From: Candidatus Parcubacteria bacterium | Lineage (GTDB): Bacteria; Patescibacteriota; Minisyncoccia; Phycocordibacterales; UBA918 | Reading direction: 5' to 3' | Length of the DNA: 64,000 nucleotides | Assembly: GCA_046050355.1 (NCBI GenBank) | Contig: JBJOPW010000002.1 | Coordinates: forward strand, 43,853 to 107,852 | Translations under genes and position numbers: made by a program | Shown here: positions 513-28,265 of the stretch, one piece after another | How the letters are laid out: every line of letters starts with the position of its first letter | Numbering within the stretch: position 1 is the first letter of the stretch | Notes under the pieces: generated by a model | Database searches by the model: none | What the model was told of the DNA's origin: nothing | What the model saw: only the letters and a program-made list of their open reading frames with translations

Positions 513-521
513 CAGCAGTAT

Positions 522-587
522 AACGAAAGACCATCCATGCGCACATGGGTGGTCTTTCGTTATAGCAAGCAATTAGTATTGCTTGCG
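522..587. terminator. Two consecutive hairpins downstream of the tRNA: a 12-bp stem at 522-561 and a 9-bp stem at 566-587.
   Basis: AACGAAAGACCA...TGGTCTTTCGTT and GCAAGCAAT..ATTGCTTGC inverted repeats. Confidence 0.45.
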
Positions 588-603
588 GACTGCTGTGCTG
601 ACC

Positions 604-710
604 GGAGCGATGTTTTCTGCTTGGCTAAAGCAGAAAACCGCGAGGTGGGGTCGAGAACACTTAGTAGATTGGGAACGAAGTGAACCAATATACTTAGTGA
701 TTCGTGACCA
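604..710 (+). repeat. Copy A of a ~108-nt tRNA-associated repeat element.
   Basis: Variable 5' hairpin (GTTTTCTGCTT..AAGCAGAAAAC) followed by a conserved ~75-nt core. The core contains the hairpin AGTAGATTGG[GAACGAAGTGAA]CCAATATACT. About 90% identical to copies at 5437-5545 (minus) and 15505-15612 (plus). Confidence 0.65.
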
Positions 711-793
711 CAAACGGTACGAAAAAGCGCACCCTTATGGGTGCCTTTTTCGTTCGTGCTTTCACAGCAAAGCCTCTCGAGGCTTTGCGTCAG

Positions 794-864
794 GAATCGA
801 AGCCCGATTGAGAGTAGATTATGAGCTTGTGAAATAATCTAGCCACGAGCGTGATCGATTCCTG
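794..864 (+). repeat. Distal part of the composite element at the first tRNA locus: inverted T-arm copy, conserved-loop-type hairpin, partial direct repeat of the tRNA 3' region.
   Basis: GGAATCGAAGCC (794-805) is the reverse complement of the tRNA T-arm region. Hairpin TAGATTA[tGAGCTTGTGAAAt]TAATCTA at 815-841. TCGATTCCTG (855-864) matches the tRNA T-arm/acceptor junction. Confidence 0.4.
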
Positions 865-5276: not shown

Positions 5277-5420
5277 CTCTGCCCCGGCTTGGAATCGTCC
5301 TGACGGTCACCAAGCTAGATTGTTTCGCTTTTGCTCACAATCTAGCAGGTGCCGCGGGACACGGCTCGCTGGCCCTAAAGGGGACCCCAGCTCCGCCGTT
5401 CGATTCCAAGCCGTGCCTAC
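5277..5420 (-). repeat. Structured tRNA-Arg 3'-end-derived segment: inverted and direct copies of the tRNA 3' end closing a multi-hairpin region that includes a conserved-loop hairpin.
   Basis: 5277-5297 is a 21/21 direct repeat of 5631-5651 (tRNA-Arg 3' end plus 4-nt trailer). 5399-5410 is its inverted complement (12-bp closing stem). Internal hairpin CTAGATTGT[GAGCAAAAGCGAA]ACAATCTAG. Confidence 0.5.
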
Positions 5421-5436
5421 AAATGTTAAATAATTT

Positions 5437-5545
5437 GGTCACGAATCACTAAGTATATTGATTCACTCCGTTCTCAATCTACTAAATGTTCGCGACCCCG
5501 TCTCGCGGTTTTCTGCTTTGGTCAAGCAGAAAACATCGCTGCGAC
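5437..5545 (-). repeat. Copy B of the ~108-nt tRNA-associated repeat element.
   Basis: Reverse complement aligns to copy A, including the GTTTTCTGCTT..AAGCAGAAAAC hairpin and the core ending GATTCGTGACCA. Core hairpin AGTAGATTGA[GAACGGAGTGAA]TCAATATACT. Confidence 0.65.
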
Positions 5546-5587
5546 TCAGAGAGAAGTCGAAAGCAATATTAATTGCTTTCTAAACCA

Positions 5588-5626
5588 AACAAAAGCGCTC
5601 GTTTTGAGCGCTTTTGTTTGGTTTTC
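5588..5626. terminator. Strong hairpin (14-bp stem) immediately downstream of tRNA-Arg(TCT).
   Basis: AAACAAAAGCGCTC-GTTTT-GAGCGCTTTTGTTT with flanking T/A runs. Confidence 0.55.
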
Positions 5627-5633
5627 TTCTCTC

Positions 5634-5705
5634 TGCCCCGGCTTGGAATCGAACCAAGAATAACGGCTTAGAAGTCCGCAGTTATATCCATTTAACTACC
5701 GGGAC
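5634..5705 (-). tRNA. tRNA-Arg (anticodon TCT).
   Basis: Reverse complement folds as a cloverleaf. Acceptor GTCCCGG/CCGGGGC, D-stem GTTA/TAAC with GG in the loop, anticodon loop CTTCTAA, T-arm CTTGG-TTCGATT-CCAAG. No CCA encoded. Confidence 0.8.
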
Positions 5706-5799: not shown

Positions 5800-6537
5800 A
5801 TGCAAGACCGACCGACTATCCTTTTGGTGCAATTCAGACAAACTCCTGCCGCTGATCTCCTCGAACGCCAGAGTGTTGAACGTGAAGTTTCTCTCTTTGC
5901 GACGGTAAAAACTATATGTGGGGTTACCGGCAATGTACTCGAAGCGATACAGGGTGCTGATGGTGTGATACTCGGCGGTTCGGGAGACTATGATTTTGAT
6001 GGAGCGAGATCGCCCGATGATCCAGTACGGGCACGTACCGAAAATCTGTTTCGGTCACTTAGTCCAACGCTCGATTACTTATTTACTATCGATAAGCCAC
6101 TTCTTGGGATTTGTTTTGGACACCAGCTCATGGGTGCCTTTCGGGGTGCCAATGTCTATCACGACACTAACCAGAGCAAATTAAAGACGCATACCGTGAC
6201 GCTCCACGATGAAGGACGGAACCACCGCCTGTTTGCAAATATGCCAGTAACTTTTGATGCACAGTATGGACACAAGGATGTGCTCGCACATATTCCGACG
6301 GGTGCGACTTTGCTTGCGCATGGTGGTGAATCCTGTCGGGTGTCAGCGCTCGCGTATAGTGACAATATTATCTCGACACAATTCCATCCCGAATTATCGC
6401 TCGCTGATATGTATGACCGGGTGGCACATATTCCGCACTATTTACCAGAAGGTACAACCGTTGATGACGTGTTTTTTGATACGCCACACGCGCGGACGAT
6501 TTTGCATAATTTTGCGAAGGTGGTGGTAGCGGGGTAG
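5800..6537 (+). CDS. Class I glutamine amidotransferase-like protein.
   Basis: GICFGHQLM (catalytic Cys elbow) and TQFHPE motifs of the GATase1 family. Start trimmed to the ATG at 5800. Confidence 0.7.
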   Translation: MQDRPTILLVQFRQTPAADLLERQSVEREVSLFATVKTICGVTGNVLEAIQGADGVILGGSGDYDFDGARSPDDPVRARTENLFRSLSPTLDYLFTIDKPLLGICFGHQLMGAFRGANVYHDTNQSKLKTHTVTLHDEGRNHRLFANMPVTFDAQYGHKDVLAHIPTGATLLAHGGESCRVSALAYSDNIISTQFHPELSLADMYDRVAHIPHYLPEGTTVDDVFFDTPHARTILHNFAKVVVAG

Positions 6538-6754
6538 GGGCGGGGACTCGGTCACTCTCGTGGCTATATTAGTTCACAAGTTCATAATCTATGGACTCTT
6601 CAGGACTCGACCCAGAATCACGGTTCTTTTATTCAATACATTGAATAAAAGAAGCTCGTGTTCTTGGTCGGCGACTCCTCGTAATTTCTCTTGGTCAGAG
6701 AAATTACATCGTCCGTCGCTTCGAGTCCCTCACGGAAGCAAAACTATTTGCTTC

Positions 6755-7006
6755 CTATCGCCCACAAACAAAAAGAACCACTCCTGCGGTTCTTTTTGTT
6801 TGTGGCCATGACCGCGACAGAGATCGAACTATCACTGAGTTCCTCAAGAAGTTCGACAAGACGTCCGCCGATGCGTAAAGGCCTTGAAACTTCTGTAATG
6901 TGGCCATGATCGTGACACGGATCGAACTATCAGCGAGTTTCTGAATAAATTCGACAAGCCATCTGTCAGGGAATAAAGACCCTAAGACTTCTGTAAGGCG
7001 GCCCAC
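6755..7006 (-). pseudogene. Fused, frame-shifted tandem copies of a small-gene 3' end (shares the C-terminal peptide ...LQKxQGLYxSAxxLSNFxRNSVIVRSLSRS with 7976-8185).
   Basis: The ORF reads through two tandem ~100-bp DNA repeat units. The stop codon present in the 7976 copy (TGA) is TGG here, and unit 2 is frame-shifted. Confidence 0.3.
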
Positions 7007-7022
7007 ATCGACACATTTCTCG
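6764..7022 (+). repeat. 16-bp-stem hairpin (6764-6803) followed by two tandem ~100-bp repeat units (6803-6900, 6901-~7022). A third unit lies at 7973-8098.
   Basis: Units begin TGG(C/T)CATGA(C/T)CG(C/T)GACA..GATCGAAC and contain GTAAAG.CC.T.A.ACTTCTGTAA. Units 1 and 2 are directly adjacent with no spacer. Confidence 0.6.
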
Positions 7023-7678
7023 AACTTGGGCTCCCAACGACCTTCTAAGGTCGATCATTGAAAGGCTGGCGTCGCGTAAGTTGCCCCAGCAGGCTCGCGA
7101 CAATCATTGCGAGGCCTCCTTGCACTCATTCGATGCCGGCAACAATGGGTCGAAGAGCCTTGACATGCGGCAACGGACTGTTCCACCCTTAGACAGCACT
7201 CAATGAGAGGTTGAATCGACTCGCGCCGAAGTCCTGTTTCGGGTTCACAAAATGCTTCCAACTGTTACTGGTTCCATGCTCGGGATCGGAAGATATCTTA
7301 GTCACAGCGACAACCTAAGTACTTGATTTTATTGAGTTTTCCGCCTTTTTCCTTGCATTTGCCGCTGAGGTATGGGAAGATACTTGGGCGATAGGCTCGA
7401 GGCTGACCCGTCGCGGTGAAAGGTGCTGCAACACCAATCACATGTCCCACAAGGACGGCGCCCCAACCACAACCTGGTTGGGGCTTTCCTTTTATGTTGA
7501 CACGATGTCGTGGTCACATCCACCATGTTCCCATCAGGTTCGAGAATCGGGATGCAGCCCGCGAGCCTGACAGGGTCAGCCTCGGCCCTGCACTTTGTGG
7601 CGCGAATGCCGCTTATCGGCCCGGTGGCTGAGTTTGTACGCGCATTGGAGTGCAGGGCTTCTAGATTGGAGCCTACCC

Positions 7679-7864
7679 ATGTCGAAACATGGTATCATCG
7701 CCGATGTGCTCTTCGGAGCGATTGAAACCACCCTTGCGCCAGTCGTTGCTGTCGTCGAGGGAGTAACCGGTGAGGTCAGCAAGGAAGCCAGCGATGGTGT
7801 GCTTCGGGCAATTGTTGATCCGACCGATATCGCGATCAACGGCCTGATCAATATCACGAGGTAA
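7679..7864 (+). CDS. Small hypothetical protein (61 aa).
   Basis: ATG with GGAG 9 nt upstream. ORF is followed immediately by an 8-bp GC hairpin (CTCCGGCG..CGCCGGAG). Lies in the GC-elevated segment. Weak support. Confidence 0.25.
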   Translation: MSKHGIIADVLFGAIETTLAPVVAVVEGVTGEVSKEASDGVLRAIVDPTDIAINGLINITR

Positions 7865-7930
7865 CATCTCACTAACTCCGGCGGGATCTAGGTCTCGCCG
7901 GAGCCTAATAAATGTGTTTCTGATAGAAGA

Positions 7931-8098
7931 CAAGGGGAGTTGCGCAGTCCGCAACTCCCCTTGTCTTTACAGTGGTCATGACCGCGACAAGGATCGAACG
8001 ATCACGGAGTTCCTGAAGAAATTCGACAAGCCTCCCGCCGAAGAGTAAAGACCCTGAGACTTCTGTAAGGTGACCCAGAACGACACACTTCTCGAACC
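7931..8098 (+). repeat. Perfect 14-bp-stem hairpin (7931-7965) followed by repeat unit 3.
   Basis: CAAGGGGAGTTGCG-cagtcc-GCAACTCCCCTTG, then TGGTCATGACCGCGACAAGGATCGAAC... homologous to units at 6803-7022. Confidence 0.6.
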
Positions 8099-8185
8099 AT
8101 AAAAACGGTGCTCGAAAAATTGCAACATGTCGGTGGAAGAGACGCTAGACTTCGAAAACTCGAAAACTGAGTCTCTTGGTGGCAA
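7976..8185 (-). CDS. Small hypothetical protein (69 aa) ending in the repeated C-terminal peptide, followed by a terminator hairpin.
   Basis: Intact ORF whose last ~30 codons lie in repeat unit 3. TGA stop, then the 14-bp hairpin on the minus strand. Confidence 0.3.
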   Translation of the reverse strand: MPPRDSVFEFSKSSVSSTDMLQFFEHRFYGSRSVSFWVTLQKSQGLYSSAGGLSNFFRNSVIVRSLSRS

Positions 8186-8436
8186 TAGCAGAGACAGGGG
8201 TCAAAGCATCACGGAATTCTCGAGTAATCCACAATTCTTCTGGCTAAGAGTAAACTCTCTGAGATATCGGTACTGCGACCTTGACCGAGAAGGGTAGAAA
8301 GGAGAAAGCTATGACGTGAACTTACAGTGATCTAGACGCACAGCCCGACACGTTGGAGTTCAAATTGAAGTCAAGGTTCGGCAAGCATGCTCACAGTGAC
8401 AGTCTGTTCATTAGGGACGGAACCTGATGAACGCCA

Positions 8437-8859
8437 GTGGTGACACGCGATGTGCAAAGTGACATAGAGAGCTTCAAGTCAATTGATGACAGGGGTCAGT
8501 GGATGCTGCAACCAACATACTACGAGCACGAGTCGGGCTTGAACTGTGTTGACATAGCCAAGCGGTTGGCATTCCTTCGGGGAAACATTGTAAAGTACGT
8601 TTGGCGAGCAGGCAATAAGGGTGATTTGGTTCAAGACCTGCAGAAGGCGATTGAGTACGCGCAGATACTCATTGTTGACCCAGATCGGGTTTGCCAGGAC
8701 CAAGAGTTGGTTTCGATGATTGATTGGTATTGTAAGAATGAGTCGCACGACCTTCGTAGGACCATTATTAGAAGTGCCGCGCTGGACTCATCAGAGATCG
8801 ACTTGAAAGAAGGTGTTTTGATGAAGCTAGACCAGTGGGTTGATTCAACTCGGTCATGA
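8437..8859 (+). CDS. DUF3310-family protein (phage-associated).
   Basis: TYYEHESGLNCVDIAKRLAFLRGNIVKYVWRAGNKGDLVQDLQKAIEYAQIL matches the DUF3310 signature (..HY..G.E.ID.......FLLGNAIKYIWRAG.KG....DL.KA.WYL). GTG start. 3' end overlaps the convergent gene 8768-9454 by 92 nt, so its extent is uncertain. Confidence 0.5.
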   Translation: MVTRDVQSDIESFKSIDDRGQWMLQPTYYEHESGLNCVDIAKRLAFLRGNIVKYVWRAGNKGDLVQDLQKAIEYAQILIVDPDRVCQDQELVSMIDWYCKNESHDLRRTIIRSAALDSSEIDLKEGVLMKLDQWVDSTRS

Positions 8860-9454
8860 GTACTCGCTGCAGCAGCGTTAGTCGCGTATAATTCTTAGCA
8901 TCTTTGATGCAGGCAGGGTTGCGGATATTCAACATTAGGCAAGATCTGGTGAAGAACCATGACTTCAGATAGACTTCTCTCCCCCCAATAAACGGACAGC
9001 GAACAAGATCTACGGTACTTCTGCTAACGAGAAGGGAACGGTTGACCGAAGCTATCAGAGTGTCCATGACGGCATGATCAACAGTATTCCTGAACATCCG
9101 CGGATCGCCCCTTAGTACCTCCGAAAACAAACCTTCAGGTCCTATCTGATCGCGGAGGTCAGACTCTTCACGAAGAAGTTCATATATTTCTTTGACTAGT
9201 GCCCAATGCTTCTTGTCGCAGAGGTTGATCACGGACTCTGCTTCAATTCGTGCTTCAAGGACGACGGGAGTCAATTCAGTTCCGGCGCACTTGTTTTCCG
9301 TCCACGACAACGCATGGCGTGGGCCAGCTTCGAAGAAGTATATGCCTTCACCTAGCCAAAGGCCATCATGTTTACTCGGGTTGAATCTGTTCGATCGAGA
9401 GATTGACTCAGCAGACCCAAGGTCTGTTCCATGATACGCGATGTAGGTATACAA
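8768..9454 (-). CDS. ART-fold protein (RES-domain / PARP-like), putative NAD-utilizing toxin.
   Basis: N-terminal YHGT...NRFNPS...GEGIYFFEAGPRHALSWTE resembles the RES motif (GRFNPpG...lYlaes.etAllE) and the PARP H-G-[ST]/G.GIYF pattern. The C-terminal ~60 aa overlap the DUF3310 ORF and may be read-through. Confidence 0.45.
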   Translation of the reverse strand: MYTYIAYHGTDLGSAESISRSNRFNPSKHDGLWLGEGIYFFEAGPRHALSWTENKCAGTELTPVVLEARIEAESVINLCDKKHWALVKEIYELLREESDLRDQIGPEGLFSEVLRGDPRMFRNTVDHAVMDTLIASVNRSLLVSRSTVDLVRCPFIGGREVYLKSWFFTRSCLMLNIRNPACIKDAKNYTRLTLLQRVLMTELNQPTGLASSKHLLSSRSLMSPARHF

Positions 9455-9485
9455 AAAAATAGGCCCCCAGAGATTGTGGGGGACC

Positions 9486-10169
9486 TTAGCTTCCTACAAC
9501 GGTCTTTGCAAGACTCTCTCCCTGAACTGCATTGATGTTGTTGGGATCAGTGCAGTTGATGCGGTGAAATTCGTTCGCTGCAAAGACAATCACCGAGACA
9601 TTGGCTGAATCCGCCTCTGCCTTGACGATGCTGTAGGCCCTACGCAACTCATCGCGCGAAATCGCGTCAATGGTTAGGCCCATTCGCTTTGTCCTGTTTG
9701 ATAGAGGGGTTGCGTTGTCCCGTAGCTGATTTAAGCTAACCGGAAGAGCATCTGAGCTTGGTTTCCAAGTGCGAGATCCAAGAAGGACTTCGACACCATT
9801 ATCCCTTTGCTCTATATCTCCGCCTGTAATTATAAACTCTAAAGCAACAATTGCAATTAATATACCAACTTGAGGCAATAGAAGGAGAATTGTCAAGTAG
9901 AGCTCAGTTTCTGTCGTCTTTAGGAAGATTAGTGAGGCAGCGCTCGTTAGCAGAAGAATAAGATGGACTATTCCAAGTACAATAGATATCCCTACTCTGC
10001 GCGGAAGTATCTCCCCATGCTCATTTACTTGGGTTATCGGTTCAAAAAGGGTCCGAGCATTCAAAACTACTCGCCTCAATGTGCTTACAAACTGCCGCAA
10101 TGATGACGAACGCTTAACTAGCGCATAGAGGCCTGGTCCGACGGCGAAACTCAAAAGTGATGCTGACAT
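9486..10169 (-). CDS. Two-TM membrane protein of unknown function, directly upstream of and co-oriented with the ART-fold gene.
   Basis: Two adjacent hydrophobic helices (aa ~60-113) and a ~110-aa C-terminal soluble domain. 31-nt gap to the downstream gene. Confidence 0.45.
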   Translation of the reverse strand: MSASLLSFAVGPGLYALVKRSSSLRQFVSTLRRVVLNARTLFEPITQVNEHGEILPRRVGISIVLGIVHLILLLTSAASLIFLKTTETELYLTILLLLPQVGILIAIVALEFIITGGDIEQRDNGVEVLLGSRTWKPSSDALPVSLNQLRDNATPLSNRTKRMGLTIDAISRDELRRAYSIVKAEADSANVSVIVFAANEFHRINCTDPNNINAVQGESLAKTVVGS

Positions 10170-10273
10170 TTGGTCGAAAACTGCTTCTCGAACCGGACCA
10201 TAATCGGAAAATATCCAGTGTTAGAGCCCTATAATTGGCTTCAGATGAGGGAAAATTGTGGGGGTGTCCCCAA

Positions 10274-10349
10274 TGGTGGGCGATGAGGGACTCGAACCCC
10301 CGACCTCGATGGTGTAAACATCTTGCTCTACCAACTGAGCTAATCGCCC
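10274..10349 (-). tRNA. tRNA-Val (anticodon TAC), CCA encoded.
   Basis: Reverse complement GGGCGAT-TA-GCTC..GAGC-A-AGATG-TTTACAC-CATCG-AGGTC-GGGGG-TTCGAGT-CCCTC-ATCGCCC-A-CCA. A hairpin TGGGGGTGTCCCCA lies immediately 3'. Confidence 0.85.
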
Positions 10350-10434: not shown

Positions 10435-11100
10435 ATGAAAATACTCGAAAAGAAGAGGGCTATAGAGTTGCGTGAGCGGGGGATAGCTTTAGGTGAAATC
10501 GCTAAAAAATTAAACGTAGCAAAAGCTACAGTCAGTTATTGGGTACGGGATATTTCATTATCGAAGACACAGATCAAGCAACTCAGAGCGAATAGTCACT
10601 CAAGAGAAGCAATTGAAAAGCGACGATTGTCACGTATGACTGCAGCCGAAAAAATCCGAGATAGTATACGAGAAGAAGCTCGACAACAAGCAGTACAGTT
10701 AATCAAAAATCCATTATGGTGTGTTGCAATAGCCTTATATTGGGGGGAGGGTGGAAAGACGCAACGAACGGTTCGAATCGCAAATAGCGACCCCTCAGTT
10801 ATTAGACTACTTTGCCACTTCTTTAGAAATGAATGTCATGTGCCACTTTCTAAAATGCGAGCACATGTTCATGCGTTTTCGCACAGCGATATTGAATCAA
10901 TAGAGAAGTACTGGTCAAAAATTAGTGGCATACCCAGAAATCAATTTTTTAAGGCATATATTAAACAAAGTAGCTCTAGTAAAGAAAAAAGACAAACACT
11001 TCCAAATGGTACAATGCAAATATATGTACATGATAGTAGTTTGTTTATTAAAATTATAGCTTGGATAGAATATCTGAAAGAGATAAAACATTATGATTGA
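10435..11100 (+). CDS. HTH-domain protein with a possible LAGLIDADG-like motif (candidate free-standing homing endonuclease).
   Basis: N-terminal resolvase/sigma-70 region-4-like HTH (RGIALGEIAKKLNVAKATVSYWVRD). Central AIALYWGEGGK resembles LAGLI(E/D)GDG. AT-rich. Sits between tRNA-Val and acyP. Confidence 0.4.
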   Translation: MKILEKKRAIELRERGIALGEIAKKLNVAKATVSYWVRDISLSKTQIKQLRANSHSREAIEKRRLSRMTAAEKIRDSIREEARQQAVQLIKNPLWCVAIALYWGEGGKTQRTVRIANSDPSVIRLLCHFFRNECHVPLSKMRAHVHAFSHSDIESIEKYWSKISGIPRNQFFKAYIKQSSSSKEKRQTLPNGTMQIYVHDSSLFIKIIAWIEYLKEIKHYD

Positions 11101-12784: not shown

Positions 12785-12871
12785 GCGGTCGTATTGCAGA
12801 ATAGGGTCTCTTGTGGTAGATTAGGGCACGTTTTACACGGACAAGAGGCATTTTATTGTTATTACTATTGT

Positions 12872-13453
12872 ATGAACACAGCATTACAGGGCGTCGCTAT
12901 CTCGCCAGTACAGATGGCAGACCGTAAGGCGCTTGGCTTGAAGCCGGGCGATACGGTCAAGGTGCACCAGAAGATCGTTGATAAGGGAAAGACTCGTCTC
13001 CAAGTTTTTGAAGGCGTGGTGCTTGCCCGTAAGCATGGTGATGAACCAGGAGCTACCTTTACTGTCCGTAAAGTCTCAAGTGGCGTTGGTGTAGAAAAAA
13101 TCTTCCCTCTCTACACACCACTCATCGAAAAAATTGAGATTGTGAAGCGTGCCAAGGTACGTCGCGCCAAGCTCTACTACATTCGTGAGAAGGTGGCCCG
13201 TGAGATTAAGCGTCAGATGCGCCGCATGTCTCTCGTTTCAATGTCTACCGAAAGTGAGACCGAAGCCAATGCTCGTATTGAAGCAGAGGCTAAGGCAGTC
13301 GCTGAAGCAGCCGCTGCCGCCGAAGCGGCTGCTCTCGCAGCCGCTGCACCAGTTGTCGAAGAGACTCCAGTGGTAGCAGAAGCTCCAGCGGAAGTAGCAG
13401 CAGAAGAAACTCCTGCTGCTGAAACACCAGTTGAAGCAGAGAAGAAAGACTAG
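12872..13453 (+). CDS. rplS: 50S ribosomal protein L19 with an Ala/Glu-rich C-terminal extension.
   Basis: [49 protein letters not shown]. Start trimmed to the ATG at 12872. Confidence 0.85.
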
Positions 13454-13467
13454 TCTCTCATCAATAA

Positions 13468-13496
13468 CAAAACCGACCGTCAGGTCGGTTTTGTTA
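13468..13496 (+). terminator. Rho-independent terminator after rplS.
   Basis: AAAACCGACC-GTCA-GGTCGGTTTTGTT. Confidence 0.6.
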
Positions 13497-13508
13497 TATA
13501 CTGTCGCT

Positions 13509-14348
13509 ATGATAACGAAACCACTTTTTGAAGCACTTATTGCCGAGATTGAATCAGCGGGTGAATTAGCGCACAAATACTTTATTGATAATGAGTCTGA
13601 CAACGAACAAAAAGCTGACGGTTCAGTGGTTACCGTTATCGATACGACCATTGAGACCCGTTTGGTTGCGTTTATTCGTGCACATTTTCCCGACGACACA
13701 ATTGTTGGAGAAGAAGGAGAAGGTGTGATTGGCACCAGTAGTTTCGTTTGGCATATTGATCCGATAGATGGTACAGATAATTTTTTAAGAAGAATTCCAT
13801 TTTGTGCCATCTCAGTGGCACGACTGGGAGATACCGATGAAGATTCGTGTGCGGTGATTCATAACCCAATTACGCAACAAACCTTTTCTAGCTATATGGA
13901 TGAAGCAGTCTACGAAAAGCATATCGTACATCACATGAATGATGATTTAATTGGTGGTCGGGCCATGATTTCTATTGCGCGAGGACGGGTTTCTTGGATG
14001 AAATCAGCCAGCTACAATATACGCAAAGCCCTTGGTCTCCATTTTGGTGGCGGTAATTCGTTTGGTTGTTGTGCGCTTGAACATGCCTATGTGGCGGCCA
14101 ACCGTCTTGATGGAGTTCTTACTTTTGGGTTGCATACCTATGATTATGCTGCCGGATTATATCTTATAAAATCAGCTGGAGGTATTATTTCAGTATTTGA
14201 GGATGACCAATGGCAGCAATGGCAAGGAAGTATCAAAGCACTTTGCTCTCAACATGGCGCCACCATTTTCTCGTCACATCAGGGCATTCATGCTGAGGCG
14301 ATAGCCTATATTGGTAACCCACGAACTTGGAGTGATGAACCCGCTTAA
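13509..14348 (+). CDS. Inositol monophosphatase-family protein (SuhB/CysQ-like).
   Basis: WHIDPIDGTDNFL metal-binding motif. Start trimmed to the ATG at 13509 after the terminator. Confidence 0.75.
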   Translation: MITKPLFEALIAEIESAGELAHKYFIDNESDNEQKADGSVVTVIDTTIETRLVAFIRAHFPDDTIVGEEGEGVIGTSSFVWHIDPIDGTDNFLRRIPFCAISVARLGDTDEDSCAVIHNPITQQTFSSYMDEAVYEKHIVHHMNDDLIGGRAMISIARGRVSWMKSASYNIRKALGLHFGGGNSFGCCALEHAYVAANRLDGVLTFGLHTYDYAAGLYLIKSAGGIISVFEDDQWQQWQGSIKALCSQHGATIFSSHQGIHAEAIAYIGNPRTWSDEPA

Positions 14349-15058
14349 GAATCTTTCTCAGAACCAATCAGAACCTTGCGCAACATTGTACCAACGAGAC
14401 CGAGGAGCATACCAAGTAACAACATGCTTGTAAACCGAGACAGAATGAGCGTGATTGTTCCACCGAGGGTATCTGGTTGCGGATAGCTAATACCACCAAG
14501 AATTGCCCGCAACGCCCACCACATACCACTTGGAATATCCTGAGCAGCTACTTGATGATTTTCAAAAACGTAAAAGAGTGATCCGAGTAGTAATGTCGCA
14601 ATCAAAAGTGTCGCACTATAAATCTCGAGATTTATTTTATACAGTGATTGGGCGGCATTTTTCTTCCGTTTGATTTCTGAGAACTTCGCAAGACGAAGCA
14701 TTCGTAGAAGACGGATGATTCGTACCGCCCGAGTGGCTTTGAGGAAGGTGAGGTTATTTAATCCGAGGTATGAAGGGAGAATGGCAGCGAGGTCGATAAT
14801 ACCAAAAAAACTGAACATATAACGCAACCGGTTTGGACTATAATAGAGCCGAGTAACATACTCGAGACTAAAAATAGTCACAATTGCCATCTCGAGATTG
14901 TGAAATATACCCACATAGACAGATAGGGACGGGACTGTCTCAAGTGCTACAACAGCCACAGCAACTAGGGTTGTGATGGCAAGAAAATGTTCTGTTCCCG
15001 GTGGTGTTACGTCTGAAAACGAGCGTCGGATGACTGGATGTTTCTGTTTTCGTTTCAT
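14345..15058 (-). CDS. Voltage-gated-type ion channel (Ion_trans family).
   Basis: S4-like RAVRIIRLLRMLRLAKF voltage sensor, multiple TM segments, pore-like TLGG segment. Confidence 0.6.
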   Translation of the reverse strand: MKRKQKHPVIRRSFSDVTPPGTEHFLAITTLVAVAVVALETVPSLSVYVGIFHNLEMAIVTIFSLEYVTRLYYSPNRLRYMFSFFGIIDLAAILPSYLGLNNLTFLKATRAVRIIRLLRMLRLAKFSEIKRKKNAAQSLYKINLEIYSATLLIATLLLGSLFYVFENHQVAAQDIPSGMWWALRAILGGISYPQPDTLGGTITLILSRFTSMLLLGMLLGLVGTMLRKVLIGSEKDS

Positions 15059-15151
15059 TGCAATTATCGTAACATAGGGAATCGACAGTGACTTGATAAT
15101 ACTATTGCTTTAGTGCATAATGTCGCCACTTGAGAAATCAAGGTTCTCACC

Positions 15152-15236
15152 TGCCCAGGTGGCGAAATTGGTAGACGCACTACCTTGAGGTGGTAGCGCC
15201 TTCACGGGCATGCTGGTTCAAATCCAGTCTTGGGCA
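15152..15236 (+). tRNA. tRNA-Leu (anticodon GAG), long variable arm.
   Basis: GCCCAGG acceptor, GG in the D-loop, anticodon arm CTACC-TTGAGGT-GGTAG, variable arm CGCCTTCACGGGCAT, T-arm CTGG-TTCAAAT-CCAG. No CCA encoded. Confidence 0.85.
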
Positions 15237-15670
15237 CAAATAGCCGACCGAAACATGAATATGTTTCGGTCGTTGCTATTTGTAGACCAAGACTGGATTT
15301 GAAAGACAGTTTCGGGGTTCCCTTAGGGCCGAAACTGTCCGGGTCGGGCGAATGAGTTATATTGTGAGCAAAGCGAAATAATATAACCATGAGTGTGACC
15401 AAATCCAGTCTTGGGCACAAAGTCGTAAAACAAAAACAATTCTCCAAAAGAGAATTGTTTTTGTTTTAGAAAGCCAATGACTTGGCTTTCGACGACTTTG
15501 TGAAGCGGAGCGTTGTGAGTCGCCCCAGAAAGGCGACGAACCGCGAGCTGGGGTCGAGAACACTTAGTAGATTGAGAACGGAGTGAATCAATATACTTAG
15601 TGATTCGTGACCAGGACAAGCAAACAGGATTAAATAAAAAGCTTAGTAACTCATGACTTAATCCAGTCTT
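15237..15670 (+). mobile_element. Composite non-coding element(s) downstream of tRNA-Leu, bounded by direct repeats of the tRNA 3' end.
   Basis: Hairpin 15245-15276. Inverted copy of the tRNA 3' end at 15284-15302. Hairpin 15305-15338. Conserved-loop hairpin GTTATATTGT[GAGCAAAGCGAA]ATAATATAAC at 15355-15386. A 22-nt exact direct repeat of the tRNA 3' end at 15399-15420. Hairpin 15425-15468. Repeat copy C. A second partial repeat AATCCAGTCTT at 15659-15669. Confidence 0.5.
15505..15612 (+). repeat. Copy C of the ~108-nt tRNA-associated repeat element.
   Basis: Conserved core CCGCGAGCTGGGGTCGAGAACACTTAGTAGATTGAGAACGGAGTGAATCAATATACTTAGTGATTCGTGACCA. Its 5' hairpin differs from copies A and B (GTCGCC..GGCGAC). 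Confidence 0.65.
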
Positions 15671-15739
15671 ACCATGAGACGGAACGATCTTTCAGCTGTT
15701 CCTCATACCAAAATTGCCAAAGTGGTATACTACTCCCGT

Positions 15740-17128
15740 ATGACCTATCCGCTTGCTCTCCAGTACGAAAAAGCTTTTAAAGATGCTGATATCCGTGGCA
15801 TCTATCCAAAAGAGATAAATGAAGGACTGGTATATGCCGTTGCTCGCGCGTTCGTTGAGGAGTTTGCCTATACCAAGGTGGTAGTCGGGCGGGACATGCG
15901 TCTGTCTTCGCCCGAGCTCCATACTGCCTTTGTCTCTGGTGTGCGCGACGCGGGAGCGGATGTGATTGACGTGGGGATGGTCGCGACCCCGCAGCTCTAC
16001 TTTGCCTCCGGGTCTATGAATCTCCCTGGCGTGATGATTACTGCCTCACATAGTCCCGCTGCGTACAATGGACTCAAGCTCGTGCACGCTGAGGCGATAC
16101 CACTCACGAAGCGCAATGGTCTCACCCAAATTCTCAAACGGGTGAAGCGAGGGCAGTGGACGAAGCCAGCAAAAAAAGGAAAGTTCCAGAAAAAGAATAT
16201 CGACGCTGGGTACCAAAAGCGAGTGCTGGCCGGTATCAAGCCAAAGCACTATGCGGGTCTGCGTATCGCAACCGATATTGGCAACGGGATGGCGCATGAT
16301 ATCGTGCCACTCCTCGCAGCGAAGCTTCCAATCAAGTTTGATACTATCTTTGCTCGCCGTGATGGTCGTTTTCCTAACCGGGACTCTGATCCCAATCTTC
16401 GCGAAAATCAAGCAGCGCTTGATGACAAAATTGACCACGGTCATTTTGATTTTGGGATTTCTTTTGACGGGGACGCTGACCGCATTGCGTTTCTTGATGA
16501 ACACGGCAACTACGTCAACAGTGCGGCGATAGGAGCTCTTATTGCGAAGCGTATGTTGGCGCGCGAGCCAAAAGCGAAGATTGCTTCCACGAATCTCAAT
16601 AGCCGTATTTATGATGAGACTATCAAAGCTGCTGGTGGGAAGGTGGTGATGGCCCGCACCGGACATACCTTTGTGAAAGAAGCGATGCGAAAGCATCAGG
16701 CGGTGTTTGGCTGTGAGTACTCGGGACACTTCTTCTTCCGCGACTTTTTCTATACTGATTCGGAAGTACTCACCTTACGCGAGGTCCTTGATGCTTACGT
16801 GGAGGCGAAGGCAGCGGGGCAGACCTTTGGCGAGATGATGGCGCCGTATCTCGTGTACCACCAGACTGAGGATATTGTGATCAAGGTCGCCGACAAAGAC
16901 ATCGCGATGGCGAAAGTACATGAGTATCTGGTGTCTCTCAAACCAAAGACGCTCAAGAAATTTGACGGCTACTTTGTTGATTTTGGTGATGTCTGGGGCG
17001 CGGTCAAAATGAGTGTGACCGAGTACGGGGTGAAGCTCATGTTTGAATCTACGAGCAAAGCCAAAGCGGTAAAGCTCCAAAAGCAGATTGCGACGTTTGT
17101 GAAGTCGGTGGCGAAGGAGAGTTGTTGA
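15740..17128 (+). CDS. Phosphomannomutase/phosphoglucomutase-family phosphohexomutase.
   Basis: TASHSPAAYNG active-site Ser loop and GISFDGDADR metal-binding loop. Start trimmed to the ATG at 15740. Confidence 0.8.
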   Translation: MTYPLALQYEKAFKDADIRGIYPKEINEGLVYAVARAFVEEFAYTKVVVGRDMRLSSPELHTAFVSGVRDAGADVIDVGMVATPQLYFASGSMNLPGVMITASHSPAAYNGLKLVHAEAIPLTKRNGLTQILKRVKRGQWTKPAKKGKFQKKNIDAGYQKRVLAGIKPKHYAGLRIATDIGNGMAHDIVPLLAAKLPIKFDTIFARRDGRFPNRDSDPNLRENQAALDDKIDHGHFDFGISFDGDADRIAFLDEHGNYVNSAAIGALIAKRMLAREPKAKIASTNLNSRIYDETIKAAGGKVVMARTGHTFVKEAMRKHQAVFGCEYSGHFFFRDFFYTDSEVLTLREVLDAYVEAKAAGQTFGEMMAPYLVYHQTEDIVIKVADKDIAMAKVHEYLVSLKPKTLKKFDGYFVDFGDVWGAVKMSVTEYGVKLMFESTSKAKAVKLQKQIATFVKSVAKESC

Positions 17129-19010: not shown

Positions 19011-19222
19011 AGGCGGCTACCGGAAGGAATTGGTCACAGGTTACTAAGCTTTTTATTTCGCTTTGCTCATAAAAATCTAAGTACCCGCGACCCCGCCTCG
19101 GCCGTTTTATTTCTAGAAAGAAATAAAACATGCCTGCGACTTTCAATTCCCGGACGCAAGTGATACTAATCACTTGCTTAGCCGCCCCAATATAAAAGAC
19201 CCCAAAAAGGGGTCCTTTATAT
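19011..19222 (-). mobile_element. Composite non-coding element downstream of tRNA-His, bounded by a direct repeat of the tRNA 3' end.
   Basis: Partial direct repeat GGCGGCTACCGG.A..GGAATTGG at 19013-19034. Conserved-loop hairpin (minus sense ATTTTTAT[GAGCAAAGCGAA]ATAAAAA) at 19049-19077. Palindromic hairpins 19106-19129 and 19157-19178. Inverted copy of the tRNA 3' end (TAGCCGCCCCAATAT) at 19179-19195. Terminator hairpin 19196-19218. Confidence 0.5.
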
Positions 19223-19298
19223 TGGGGCGGCTACCGGGAATTGAACCCGAATTGAGAGTTCCACAAACTCCAGTAATAACCATTATACCATAGCCGCC
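19223..19298 (-). tRNA. tRNA-His (anticodon GTG) with encoded G-1 and CCA.
   Basis: Reverse complement GGCGGCTA...anticodon arm GGAGT-TTGTGGA-ACTCT, T-arm TCGGG-TTCAATT-CCCGG, 3' end TAGCCGCC-C-CCA. The extra 5' G pairing with C73 is His-specific. Confidence 0.85.
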
Positions 19299-19422
19299 AG
19301 ATTGGTCACGCAAGTAGGGAGTTACTCGCGTGACCACTGTTATACCTATTTTTTCGGAAAAAGTCGAGTCCGCAACCCGCGACTAGCTATTAGATTGATA
19401 TTTTGTATACTGAAAGGTATCT

Positions 19423-27851: not shown

Positions 27852-27859
27852 CAAGAAAC

Positions 27860-28265
27860 GCGGATGGTTGCGAATTCGAGTTGTGTAATTACCATCTCGA
27901 GTTTGAGGAAAGTCCGGACACAGCGTCAATAGAAATATTGTCGAGACAGGTAGTGGGTAATACCCATCCTGAGCAATCAGCGAGGTGCGAGCAGAGACGC
28001 CCGCGGCGAAAGCCAACGGCTACCCACCAGGGTAGAGCTTGTATGGCAACATACAAGGTGAAACGGCTAAATCCTTACCCCTGTGCAAGGCCGTGCCGAG
28101 CACGTAGTCTGGATACATAATCTCTATGATTACATTTCAGACTACGTGCTTGGAGAGCTGCAAGAGGTGATCAGTAATGATCATCCCAGGTATATAACCA
28201 TCTCGAGCCAATGGCTCGAACAGAATCCGGCTTACAGCGTATCAAACACTCCCTTAGGGGAGTTT
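27860..28265 (+). ncRNA. rnpB: RNase P RNA (bacterial type).
   Basis: P4 5' strand GAGGAAAGTCCGGAC at 27905-27919 and P4 3' strand ACAGAATCCGGCTTA at 28220-28234 match the universally conserved RNase P RNA motifs. Ends with terminator hairpin CTCCCTTAGGGGAG plus T5 at 28247-28268. All six-frame ORFs inside are judged spurious. Confidence 0.8.

What the first reader, a model, noticed from the sequence alone, without database searches (positions are those of the whole stretch)
15237..15670. tRNA-Leu(GAG) locus: nested direct repeats of the tRNA 3' end suggest serial insertions
After the tRNA come two hairpins, an inverted copy of the 3' end (15284-15302), the conserved-loop hairpin, then a perfect 22-nt direct repeat CAAATCCAGTCTTGGGCACAAA (15399-15420). 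After that are a terminator-like hairpin (15425-15468), repeat copy C, and a second shorter repeat AATCCAGTCTT (15659-15669) just before the phosphohexomutase gene. This is the pattern expected from tandem accretion of small elements at one attachment site.
Basis: seen in the sequence. Interest (0 to 1): 0.65.

Follow-up and report, generated by a model that had tools for sequence, protein, structure and literature searches.

The report
Structured mini-cassettes stacked behind tRNA genes
The repeats after tRNA-Leu are real: they mark three small non-coding structured cassettes, stacked at the tRNA's 3' end, from an undescribed family that follows more than half of the sampled tRNA genes in this group of tiny (CPR) bacteria, each copy carrying inverted and direct copies of its own tRNA's end.

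Summary
tRNA-Leu(GAG) lies at 15153-15236. A perfect 22-nt repeat of its 3' end lies at 15219-15240 and 15400-15421, a 17-nt perfect inverted copy at 15287-15303, and a third partial copy at 15660-15670. None is expected by chance.

The interval holds three stacked non-coding cassettes: B2 (recent), A, and a decayed third unit. Orthologous tRNA-Leu loci in relatives carry zero units, a truncated A, or A alone, so serial insertion is supported.

The cassettes belong to one superfamily. Each has an inverted copy of the local tRNA's positions 54 to about 69, a conserved three-way-junction core (20 of 41 pairs covary), the motif GTGAC, and a direct copy starting at tRNA position 56. The same family sits behind the window's tRNA-Arg(GCG), Arg(TCT) and His genes and, displaced by 3.5 kb, tRNA-Val. 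In related CPR metagenomes it follows 14 isoacceptors: 48 of 55 assessable units lie downstream of a same-strand tRNA.

There is no Rfam family, no phage or plasmid match, and no integrase nearby. My best reading (confidence about 0.5) is integrase-less mobile cassettes that recombine in a 7-8-bp T-loop/T-stem core through a folded att-like site. How the arms get re-matched to different tRNAs is unexplained.

The parts
15093..15121 (+). Promoter-like site for tRNA-Leu (TTGATA, 17-nt spacer, CATAAT)
   Evidence: Consensus scan, 10 of 12 matches. Function not shown.
15153..15236 (+). tRNA-Leu(GAG). No CCA is encoded.
   Evidence: ARAGORN; Rfam RF00005, 51.5 bits.
15219..15240 (+). DR1 (S1): tRNA positions 56-73 plus CAAA, now the working 3' end of the tRNA
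   Evidence: Perfect 22-nt repeat with 15400-15421; 0 expected by chance.
15241..15286 (+). Left module of unit B2: trailer TAGC, a 12-bp hairpin (15245-15272) that scores as a terminator on both strands, and the T-rich tail TTGCTATTTGTAG
   Evidence: Terminator scan. The module CAAAT.AGC-hairpin-TTGCT.TTTGTAG is conserved in B units at other tRNAs.
15287..15303 (+). I: inverted copy of tRNA-Leu positions 54 to about 69. It can pair with DR1 (long palindrome 15214-15306) or with DR2 (stem P1).
   Evidence: 17 of 17 complementary to 15217-15233 and 15 of 15 to 15400-15414; palindrome z = -15.7.
15304..15399 (+). B2 core. P2 is the hairpin 15305-15339 with the conserved loop motif GGGGTTCCCTTAGGGCC (15314-15330). 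P3 has base GGTCG (15342-15346) paired to TGACC (15396-15400), enclosing an inner hairpin with loop GTGAGCAAAGCGAAA. The core ends in GTGAC.
   Evidence: Folds. In 15 B2 copies, 41 pairs are predicted, 20 have compensatory changes, and one G.U pair is invariant. The covariance model scores this copy 120 bits.
15400..15421 (+). DR2 (D): the displaced original tRNA 3' end, positions 56-73 plus CAAA
   Evidence: Together with 15426-15468 it aligns to the tRNA end and terminator of L001 and L006.
15426..15468 (+). Native tRNA-Leu terminator-like hairpin (19-bp perfect stem with an A-tract on one side and a T-tract on the other)
   Evidence: I1; z = -10.7. Equivalent hairpins follow the tRNA directly in L001, L002 and L006. 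The consensus terminator scan did not flag it because the stem is G+C-poor.
15469..15490 (+). Small palindromic hairpin GAAAGCCAA-TGA-CTTGGCTTTC, the start of unit A
   Evidence: The same hairpin family precedes A units at 565-586, about 5559-5581(-) and about 19155-19177(-), and in L002, L006, L018 and L051.
15492..15502 (+). I' of unit A: ACGACTTTGTG, complementary to the native tRNA end plus trailer CACAAAGTCGT (15416-15426)
   Evidence: I9. The same arrangement, with locus-specific sequences, occurs at tRNA-Arg(GCG), tRNA-Arg(TCT) and the L002 tRNA-Leu.
15503..15612 (+). Unit A core: hairpin X (15519-15537), GAGCTGGGGTCGAG, hairpin Y, and GTGACC at 15607-15612
   Evidence: 95% repeat of 636-710 and 5436-5510(-); fold; 16 family members aligned by eye; B2 model scores 26 bits.
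15613..15670 (+). Decayed third unit: I'' ACAGGATTAA (15624-15633), a remnant of the inner hairpin, TGAC (15654-15657), and D TTAATCCAGTCTT (15658-15670)
   Evidence: 33 nt at 82% to the tRNA-His unit (19026-19058, I3); (I10, D1). The same distal repeat is kept in L002.
519..864 (+). Same family behind tRNA-Arg(GCG) 441-513: terminator 519-564, small hairpin 565-586, I' 589-599, A core 600-710, a second terminator, I 791-801, a short core, and D 855-864
5277..5633 (-). Same family behind tRNA-Arg(TCT) 5634-5705: terminator, small hairpin, I' 5547-5556, A core 5436-5546, I 5398-5413, B1 core, and D 5277-5297 (a 21-nt perfect repeat of 5631-5651)
   Evidence: B1 scores 59 bits.
19012..19222 (-). 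Same family behind tRNA-His 19223-19297: a palindromic terminator that includes the acceptor end (19179-19233), small hairpin, I 19142-19153, a hybrid core, GTGACC, and D (about 19012-19031, with a 2-nt indel)
   Evidence: I4; 42 bits.
6520..6830 (-). Array with tRNA-Val arms (I GTGAGGGACTCGAA, D CGAGTCCCC), now 3.5 kb from tRNA-Val (10274-10349)
   Evidence: Model hit 6601-6730, 29.5 bits, E = 3.5e-7; sequence. In L031 and L042 the orthologous array directly follows tRNA-Val.

Best explanation
The interval 15237-15670 is a stack of three small non-coding cassettes inserted one after another at the 3' end of tRNA-Leu(GAG). They belong to an undescribed superfamily of 110-180-nt elements. In this CPR/Patescibacteria clade the family sits downstream, on the same strand, of more than half of the sampled tRNA genes.

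Each cassette has four parts in order: (1) I, an inverted copy of the local tRNA's positions 54 to about 69; (2) a conserved three-way-junction core, with P2, and P3 based on GGTCG/TGACC; (3) the motif GTGAC; (4) D, a direct copy of the tRNA starting at C56. Cassettes that sit next to the tRNA also bring a replacement 3' end (positions 56-73) and their own weak terminator, so the tRNA stays intact.

The mechanism I think most likely is that these are integrase-less mobile cassettes. They would move by site-specific recombination within a 7-8-bp core (tRNA positions 56 to 62/63, i.e. the T-loop and start of the T-stem), catalysed by a recombinase encoded elsewhere in the genome. The I:D stem with its three-way junction would be the folded, probably single-stranded, recombination site. 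This would work like an integron attC site or the CTX-phage attP hairpin. New cassettes enter at the tRNA or at an older D and push earlier ones outward.

Shown: the anatomy, the covariation, the tight tRNA linkage, presence/absence among relatives, and the bimodal length of D. Inferred: recombination as the mechanism, the single-strand fold, and the enzyme. Unexplained: how I and D become re-matched to a new tRNA.
For: (1) Repeats: the direct repeats start in the T-loop and run to the tRNA end. The upstream copy completes an intact tRNA, and the downstream copy is followed by the native trailer and terminator. The filled/empty pair at tRNA-Trp (L017 vs L036) shows the same thing.

(2) Unit number varies at orthologous loci: Leu has 0, a partial unit, 1, or 3; His has 1, 2, 3, or more than 4 with a HAD gene cassette.

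(3) D length is bimodal: 6-9 nt in 28 cases (mode 7-8) and 16-29 nt in 8 cases. This fits a short crossover core plus recent full-length target copies. The distal tRNA-His D copies carry 1-2-nt indels at position 62/63.

(4) tRNA linkage: 48 of 55 assessable distinct units have a same-strand tRNA within 1.5 kb upstream, covering 14 isoacceptors. 27 of 47 tRNA loci carry an inverted copy of their own T-arm of at least 14 nt downstream, and 0 of 47 upstream.

(5) Conserved fold: 20 of 41 pairs in B2 have compensatory changes, and one G.U is invariant on the tRNA-sense strand.

(6) Position relative to terminators: in every unit read in detail, a terminator-like hairpin lies between the tRNA and I. 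I is therefore poorly placed to be co-transcribed with the tRNA.

(7) Variable surroundings: the arrays border variable gene content, including HAD, DUF305/MauE, small secreted ORFs, Abi-like ATPases and a T4SS pilin.

(8) Known precedent: serial integration leaving partial tRNA copies, with new elements pushing older ones outward, is documented for tycheposons (bioRxiv 10.1101/2020.12.28.424599, read).
Against: No integrase, transposase or reverse transcriptase was found. All the large ORFs screened across the 64-kb window look like housekeeping genes. The Pfam and NCBIfam scans of chosen ORFs flanking the arrays found none, although the 80-ORF batch scan displayed only 25 of 98 matched families. 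No tyrosine-recombinase motif was found in six frames of the window and all loci.

The elements are absent from viral contigs, phage records and plasmid records.

A protein integrase does not explain why an identical 95-nt core sits at tRNA-Arg(GCG) and tRNA-Gln(CTG), and with one mismatch at tRNA-Leu(TAA), with completely different I and D arms and sharp boundaries at ...TCGAA| and GTGAC|. Nor does it explain why A-type units carry an 11-12-nt complement of each locus's unique trailer.

The long inverted copy has no role in classical att sites. No excised circle or autonomous relative was seen.
Confidence: 0.5

Rival explanations
1. The units are functional structured RNAs made by read-through from the tRNA promoter, or from promoters of their own. 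For example, they could be 3'-trailer modules that direct tRNA or trailer processing, or act as stable RNAs. Stem P1 (I:D) would copy the T-stem and acceptor 3' strand, giving a minihelix-like stem. Under this reading the copy-number differences are ordinary gain and loss of RNA genes.
For: The three-way junction is conserved and covaries strongly (20 of 41 pairs). Its loops are highly conserved (GGGGTCCCCTTTAGGGCC; GTGAGCAAAGCGAAA). One G.U is invariant and pairs only on the tRNA-sense strand. The sense strand folds on average 5.5 kcal/mol better than the antisense strand (25 of 29 units). B units lie between the tRNA and the strong native terminator, behind only a weak hairpin. The family occupies more than half of the sampled tRNA loci in very small genomes.
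Against: If transcribed with the tRNA, a 17-19-nt perfect antisense to its 3' half would compete with tRNA folding. The predicted fold of 15153-15470 pairs I with the tRNA. A-type units lie behind strong terminators, between a terminator and the next gene's promoter. G.U pairs are rare overall. D decays to 7-8 nt while presence/absence varies between close relatives, and cargo genes sit inside the arrays. No Rfam family matches.
Confidence: 0.2
2. The units are guide-programmed miniature transposons. I, and perhaps D, would be programmable guide segments set in a conserved scaffold. As single-stranded DNA (like the cleavage-site guides of IS200/IS605) or as RNA (like IS110 bridge RNAs), they would base-pair with the tRNA gene's 3' part. 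A trans-acting enzyme would then place the element at the tRNA end. Retargeting would happen by changing the guide.
For: The variable segments have sharp boundaries inside conserved flanks: TTGCT.TTTGTAG-[I]-GAA-core and GTGAC-[D]. Identical cores carry different arms at three tRNAs. A-type I' segments match each locus's unique trailer, and the match holds in orthologous loci whose trailers differ: CACAAAGTCGT/ACGACTTTGTG in the window against CACACGGACGCA/TGCGTCCGTGTG in L002. In L044 the tRNA and D share a T66 variant while I keeps the complement of C66, which suggests I travels with the element and D is copied from the target. The fold is strand-specific.
Against: No candidate enzyme (TnpA, TnpB, IS110-type or other) was seen in any locus. 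IS200/IS605 and IS110 elements do not duplicate 18-22 nt of target. Gene conversion limited to the homologous cores would also give identical cores with different arms. No plausible route for writing a new 15-19-nt guide is shown.
Confidence: 0.13
3. The units are ordinary decayed remnants of prophages or integrative conjugative elements that once integrated at these tRNAs, with nothing special left but att scars.
For: Direct repeats of tRNA 3' ends starting in the T-loop are the classical signature of such scars. Variable genes flank the arrays.
Against: Random remnants would not be a conserved, covarying 95-130-nt structure shared at 14 different tRNAs and across many assemblies. They would not always carry an inverted copy of the local tRNA. 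No similarity to phage, viral or plasmid collections was found.
Confidence: 0.05
4. The 22-mer duplication is an assembly artefact, either a collapse or a spurious loop.
For: Short-read assemblies of the same organism break inside this locus: L007 starts at about 15584, and L056/L057 end at about 15177.
Against: The same architecture, including full-length repeats, appears in dozens of contigs from independent projects and assemblers. The sequence between the repeats is a conserved family member that scores 120 bits against a model built from the family alignment, in which this copy is itself one of 15 sequences.
Confidence: 0.01

Closest known systems
tRNA-gene integrative elements and their integrase-less derivatives (tycheposons and their degenerate remnants; cis-mobilizable elements, CIMEs, of Streptococcus ICEs)
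   Same: Direct repeats of the tRNA 3' end flank each insert. The crossover region lies in the T-loop and the tRNA is regenerated. Serial integrations push older elements outward and leave partial tRNA copies; this is stated for tycheposons in bioRxiv 10.1101/2020.12.28.424599. CIME accretion and T-loop 'sublocation II' integration are from my own knowledge (Pavlovic/Bellanger; Williams 2002).
   Different: These units are 110-180 bp and non-coding. They share a conserved, covarying three-way-junction core and always carry an inverted copy of the tRNA 3' part. One core family serves 14 tRNAs. No integrase or autonomous parent element was found anywhere in the sampled DNA.
Integron attC sites and cassette arrays; the CTX-phage attP(+) hairpin (IMEX elements)
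   Same: All have arrays built at one fixed site. The recombination-site candidate is an imperfect palindrome with a variable, sometimes branched, centre, in which structure is conserved more than sequence. Two inverted copies of the target-like core are separated by about 100 nt and would rebuild a duplex target when one strand folds. Folding is strand-specific. The attC and CTX mechanisms are from my own knowledge.
   Different: The units lack the R''/R' boxes (RYYYAAC/GTTRRRY); the right boundary reads GTGAC|CRAWTCC. No IntI was found, and the anchor is a tRNA gene, not attI or dif. The arms match the local tRNA over up to 19-22 nt. Most cassettes carry no ORF.
Guide-bearing transposons (IS200/IS605 cis DNA guides and their PATE derivatives; IS110 bridge RNAs)
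   Same: A short variable segment complementary to the target sits inside a conserved structured scaffold. The units have subterminal hairpins, strand-specific folds and non-autonomous miniature copies.
   Different: Guide-like segments here are 11-19 nt, against 4-5 nt in IS200/IS605. 18-22 nt of target is duplicated. No TnpA, TnpB or IS110 recombinase gene was seen.
Rfam families of structured RNAs found next to tRNAs or in integrated elements
   Same: Position beside tRNA genes and a conserved fold.
   Different: No family matched, either at gathering scores or at E values up to 5, apart from tRNA itself and spurious microRNA-like hairpin hits.

Membership tests
Integrase-mediated tRNA-gene integrative element (att sites, T-loop sublocation) | Direct repeats of the tRNA 3' segment flank the insert, and an intact tRNA is kept at one end | tested here: met
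   The 22-nt (Leu) and 21-nt (Arg-TCT) perfect repeats start at C56. The upstream copy completes the tRNA.
Integrase-mediated tRNA-gene integrative element (att sites, T-loop sublocation) | Empty sites exist at the same locus in relatives | tested here: met
   tRNA-Leu in L001 and L006 against the window. tRNA-Trp in L036 against L017.
Integrase-mediated tRNA-gene integrative element (att sites, T-loop sublocation) | A tyrosine or serine recombinase gene lies inside or next to the element | tested here: not met
   Pfam and NCBIfam scans of the large ORFs across the window and of chosen ORFs flanking the arrays found none. The 80-ORF batch scan showed none among the 25 of 98 matched families it displayed. 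A motif scan of all six frames found none.
CIME / integrase-less satellite of an integrative element | Flanked by att repeats and lacking recombination genes | tested here: met
   Same evidence as above. The units are 110-180 bp and contain no ORF.
CIME / integrase-less satellite of an integrative element | A cognate autonomous element with the same att/arms exists to mobilise it | tested here: inconclusive
   None was found in 40 related loci (253 kb), viral contigs, phage records or plasmid records. Whole genomes of the clade could not be searched.
Integron attC cassette array | R''/R' core boxes (RYYYAAC ... GTTRRRY) at the cassette boundaries | tested here: not met
   By direct reading of 29 units, the left arm ends ...GGAWTYGAA and the right boundary is GTGAC|CRAWTCC.
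Integron attC cassette array | IntI integrase and attI adjacent to the array | tested here: not met
   No integrase was found. The arrays are anchored at tRNA genes.
Integron attC cassette array | An imperfect palindrome that folds on one strand, with structure conserved more than sequence | tested here: met
   A three-way junction closed by I:D; 20 of 41 pairs covary; one strand-specific G.U is invariant. This is a resemblance only.
MITE (miniature inverted-repeat transposable element) | Element-specific terminal inverted repeats plus a short target-site duplication of fixed length | tested here: not met
   The inverted arms are copies of the local tRNA and differ between loci. The repeats are 6-29 nt long and bimodal.
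IS200/IS605-type PATE or IS110 bridge-RNA element | An associated TnpA/TnpB or IS110 recombinase, and no long target duplication | tested here: not met
   No such genes were found in the window or loci. 18-22-nt repeats are present.
Known RNA families (Rfam 15), including group I introns and self-cleaving ribozymes | A match to a covariance model | tested here: not met
   Only tRNA and RNase P matched at gathering scores. At E values up to 5 there were only spurious hairpin-type hits.

The most novel reading that the evidence does not exclude
These are programmable, guide-bearing miniature mobile elements. A conserved about 100-nt three-way-junction scaffold would carry exchangeable segments (I, 11-19 nt antisense; D, at least 7 nt sense) that address it to the 3' end of a chosen tRNA gene. 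A still unknown trans-acting enzyme would read that pairing as folded single-stranded DNA or as RNA. That would make it a natural nucleic-acid-guided insertion system distinct from IS110 bridge RNAs, IS200/IS605 and CRISPR-associated transposons.
Probability: 0.15. Interest if true: 0.85.

Novelty: new variant of a known kind. Interest (0 to 1): 0.66.

Why it matters
tRNA genes are the classic landing pads for mobile DNA, but the known occupants are kilobase-scale elements with their own integrases. Here, streamlined CPR genomes carry a family of roughly 150-nt non-coding structured cassettes behind most of the sampled tRNA genes. One conserved core is paired with arms that match whichever tRNA it follows.

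If the cassettes are mobile recombination sites, they define an integron-like accretion system anchored on tRNA genes, and they explain the gene-content hot spots beside CPR tRNAs. If the arms act as guides, this would be a new natural system for programmable insertion. If the cassettes are RNAs, they are a widespread unannotated RNA family tied to tRNA expression.

There are also practical consequences. The repeats break short-read assemblies at tRNA loci and can create chimeric contigs.

Tried and rejected
**RNA families.** Rfam at gathering scores and at E values up to 5 gave only tRNA, RNase P and spurious microRNA-like hairpin hits. By inspection, the junction strands do not fit a hammerhead, the size and Rfam result do not fit a group I intron, and there are no C/D boxes.

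**Mobile-element source.** Scans of viral contigs for two core motifs gave 0 hits. blastn of 15241-15625 against phage and plasmid records gave no match.

**Recombinase search.** Pfam and NCBIfam scans of the large ORFs across the window and of chosen ORFs flanking the arrays found no recombinase. The 80-ORF batch scan of related loci showed none among the 25 of 98 matched families it displayed. A six-frame regular-expression search for the tyrosine-recombinase HxLRH...GH...Y motif also found none.

**Strand test.** G.U versus A.C counts in the stems were too few to separate RNA from DNA. Only the invariant G.U in P3 points to the tRNA-sense strand.

**Apparent exception.** L017 (I matching tRNA-Tyr, D matching tRNA-Arg) looked like a mis-targeted copy. 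It shares its core and right flank exactly with the tRNA-Arg(GCG) locus L055, so it is a chimera or a recombinant formed through the repeat.

**Independent assemblies.** Contigs L007, L056 and L057 end inside the locus and could not confirm the tRNA-Leu junctions.

**Literature.** Searches found nothing describing these elements.

**Other ideas considered and dropped.** A reverse-transcriptase primer-binding-site origin for I is excluded because I copies the genomic trailer, not CCA. Casposon-type or MITE-type target duplication is excluded because the repeat length is bimodal and ends at the tRNA end.
Full report
**1. The observation**

The window's tRNA-Leu(GAG) lies at 15153-15236. The 22-mer CAAATCCAGTCTTGGGCACAAA occurs exactly twice, at 15219-15240 (tRNA positions 56-73 plus CAAA) and at 15400-15421. 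No match is expected in shuffles, even with 3 mismatches allowed.

A perfect 17-nt inverted copy lies at 15287-15303. The 11-mer AATCCAGTCTT occurs four times in 64 kb, all in this locus, against 0.05 expected.

The hairpins are real:
- 15245-15272, which scores as a terminator on both strands;
- 15305-15339;
- 15426-15468, a 19-bp perfect stem.

The tRNA 3' part, the first hairpin and the inverted copy together form one long imperfect palindrome, 15214-15306 (z = -15.7).

**2. Anatomy: three cassettes**

Reading outward from the tRNA, the locus contains three units.

- **Unit B2 (15241-15399).** It begins with the trailer TAGC, a weak terminator hairpin and the tail TTGCTATTTGTAG. Next comes the inverted copy I. 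Then comes a core made of P2, whose loop region carries GGGGTTCCCTTAGGGCC, and P3, whose base pairs GGTCG with TGACC around an inner hairpin with loop GTGAGCAAAGCGAAA. The core ends in GTGAC. It is followed by DR2 (15400-15421) and the strong hairpin 15426-15468.
- **Unit A (15469-15612).** It begins with a small palindromic hairpin. Then comes an 11-nt segment (15492-15502) complementary to the native tRNA end plus trailer (15416-15426). Two further hairpins and GTGACC follow.
- **A decayed third unit (15613-15670).** It is homologous to the 3' part of the tRNA-His unit (I3). It ends in TGAC plus TTAATCCAGTCTT.

The phosphohexomutase most likely starts at ATG 15740, so all of this is intergenic.

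**3. The same design occurs at the other tRNAs of the window**

- tRNA-Arg(GCG), tRNA-Arg(TCT) (with a 21-nt perfect repeat, 5277-5297 = 5631-5651) and tRNA-His are each followed by units of the same kinds.
- In each case the inverted and direct segments copy that tRNA, not tRNA-Leu.
- A covariance model built from B2 copies finds all of them. It also finds a unit with tRNA-Val arms at 6601-6730 on the minus strand, 3.5 kb from tRNA-Val.
- tRNA-Val itself keeps a 9-nt scar of a direct copy.

**4. Relatives**

Homologues of the flanking phosphomannomutase place the organism in CPR/Parcubacteria. The syntenic loci compare as follows.

| Locus | tRNA-Leu(GAG) region |
|---|---|
| L001 | tRNA and terminator only |
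| L006 | adds the small hairpin and about 30 nt of unit A |
| L002 | full unit A plus the same distal repeat |
| Window | also has B2 |

DR2 and the hairpin 15426-15468 align with the native tRNA end and terminator of the relatives. B2 is therefore the newest insert and lies closest to the tRNA.

At tRNA-His, unit number runs from 1 (window) through 2 (L001) and 3 (L006). In L002 the array has four or more units and encloses a HAD hydrolase gene. Small cargo ORFs also sit inside arrays at tRNA-Gln and tRNA-Tyr.

tRNA-Trp gives a clean filled/empty pair, L017 against L036.

**5. Family-wide picture**

- The P2 loop motif found 8 true loci in four CPR MAGs and about 28 in metagenomes. It found none in viral contigs.
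- 48 of 55 assessable distinct units have a same-strand tRNA within 1.5 kb upstream, covering 14 isoacceptors.
- 27 of 47 tRNA loci carry an inverted copy of their own T-arm of at least 14 nt downstream, typically about 50 nt after the tRNA end. None of the 47 carries one upstream.
- In 15 B2 copies the three-way junction has 41 pairs. Twenty show compensatory changes, and one G.U at the base of P3 is invariant, which identifies the tRNA-sense strand as the folding strand.
- Types A, B1, B2 and shorter forms share one architecture: I, P2, GGGTCG...P3...GTGAC(C), D.
- An identical 95-nt core occurs at tRNA-Arg(GCG) and tRNA-Gln(CTG), and with one mismatch at tRNA-Leu(TAA). The arms are entirely different and the boundaries are sharp.
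- The direct copy is either 6-9 nt (28 cases) or 16-29 nt (8 cases).
- Older copies keep a long I but only a short D.

**6. What was not found**

- No Rfam family matched.
- No phage or plasmid similarity was found.
- No recombinase, transposase or reverse transcriptase was found in the window or in the ORFs examined beside the arrays. One search displayed only 25 of the 98 families matched by its 80 ORFs.
- Neighbouring genes are housekeeping genes or variable cargo.

**7. Interpretation**

Several features are what site-specific integration at a tRNA produces:
- repeats that start in the T-loop;
- regeneration of the tRNA;
- the displaced native 3' end and terminator;
- the 7-8-nt modal core;
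- differences in unit number between relatives;
- cargo-bearing arrays.

Serial integration that leaves partial tRNA copies is documented for tycheposons. I therefore favour integrase-less mobile cassettes that recombine in a short T-loop/T-stem core (confidence 0.5).

The I:D stem rebuilds, on one strand, a duplex copy of the target next to a conserved three-way junction. This resembles the folded attC sites of integrons and the CTX-phage attP hairpin (from my own knowledge). I infer, but have not shown, that it is the recombination site. In every unit read in detail a terminator-like hairpin separates the tRNA from I, which argues against routine co-transcription.

The rivals are listed below.
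- **A co-transcribed functional RNA (0.2).** This is favoured by the conserved loops and the strand-specific G.U.
- **A guide-programmed transposon (0.13).** This is favoured by the sharp variable-segment boundaries, by trailer-matched I' segments that differ between orthologous loci, and by L044, where the tRNA and D share a variant that I lacks.
- **Ordinary prophage scars (0.05).**
- **An assembly artefact (0.01).**

**8. Unexplained**

- How do both arms become matched to a new tRNA while the core stays identical? Gene conversion limited to the cores and true retargeting cannot be separated with these data.
- Why do the long inverted copy and the conserved TTTGTAG mismatch opposite the acceptor end persist?

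**9. Verdict**

The elements are a new, structured, non-coding variant of tRNA-targeting integrative DNA. Their mechanism remains an open and interesting question.

Noticed in passing
window 6520-10273 (minus strand, downstream of tRNA-Val 10274-10349): About 3.5 kb separates tRNA-Val from its array of Val-armed units (6520-6830), which in L031 and L042 directly follows the tRNA. The insert holds two ORFs with no Pfam or NCBIfam match (9486-10169 and 8768-9454, both minus strand) and a 1.9-kb stretch with no ORF of 100 aa or more.
   Followed up: partly
window 6802-8121: A family of three 150-nt direct repeats (6802-6951, 6900-7049, 7972-8121; 63-76% identity). By eye, the two copies read in full (6802-7049) each end in a pseudo tRNA 3' end (GTTCGATC...CATGGCCACA). 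They may be scars of older cassettes.
   Followed up: partly
window 10244-10252: A 9-nt direct copy of the tRNA-Val T-stem/acceptor (TCCCTCATC) lies 22 nt after the tRNA, with no unit attached. It looks like a scar. In L001, tRNA-Val keeps a B-type left module plus only 6 nt of the inverted copy.
   Followed up: partly
window 10435-11100 (+): A 221-aa ORF has an N-terminal HTH_23 domain and a faint IS630-transposase-like hit (E = 0.003). It sits just upstream of tRNA-Val. It is absent from the same position in L001 and L002, where acylphosphatase follows directly.
   Followed up: partly
L017 5721-6136 versus L055 4384-4500: The tRNA-Tyr unit of L017 has an inverted arm matching Tyr, but its core, direct arm and right flank are identical to the tRNA-Arg(GCG) locus of L055. 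It is either a chimeric assembly or a recombination through the repeated core. L042 shows a similar Arg/Tyr mix at a contig end.
   Followed up: partly
window 565-586, 15469-15490, about 5559-5581(-), about 19155-19177(-); also L002, L006, L018, L028, L051: A recurrent 22-23-nt perfect palindrome (consensus about GAAAGCAAT-TAA-TATTGCTTTC or GTGANTGATTTAATATCANTCAC) sits immediately before the inverted arm of many units. It could be a protein operator or a separate mini-insert.
   Followed up: no
window 15674-15742: The phosphohexomutase ORF called from ATG 15674 is probably 22 codons too long. Most homologues are about 462 aa, and ATG 15740 is preceded by TGGTATACT 8 nt upstream. A similar TATACT-N-CCCGT-start arrangement precedes the gene at 894, which suggests very short leaders.
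   Followed up: partly
window 19300-19350 (minus strand, just upstream of tRNA-His): A hairpin, GGTCACGCGAGTA...TACTTGCGTGACC, ends in GTGACCAAT 5 nt before the tRNA-His 5' end. It reuses the GTGACC motif that ends the cassettes, and the region is largely conserved in L001.
   Followed up: no
window 27852-28250 (+): Bacterial RNase P RNA class A scores only just above the Rfam gathering score (109 vs 100 bits), so it is a divergent CPR version.
   Followed up: no
window 39456-43061 (+): A 1201-aa class I tRNA-synthetase ORF (probably IleRS) has a histidine-phosphatase (His_Phos_1) domain inserted at residues 554-721.
   Followed up: no
window 12794-15058 versus L001 and L002: Gene content around tRNA-Leu differs between relatives. 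The window has inositol monophosphatase and an ion-transport protein upstream of the tRNA. L001 and L002 have a WhiA-like gene upstream and TerC between the tRNA and the phosphomannomutase. L006 has neither.
   Followed up: partly
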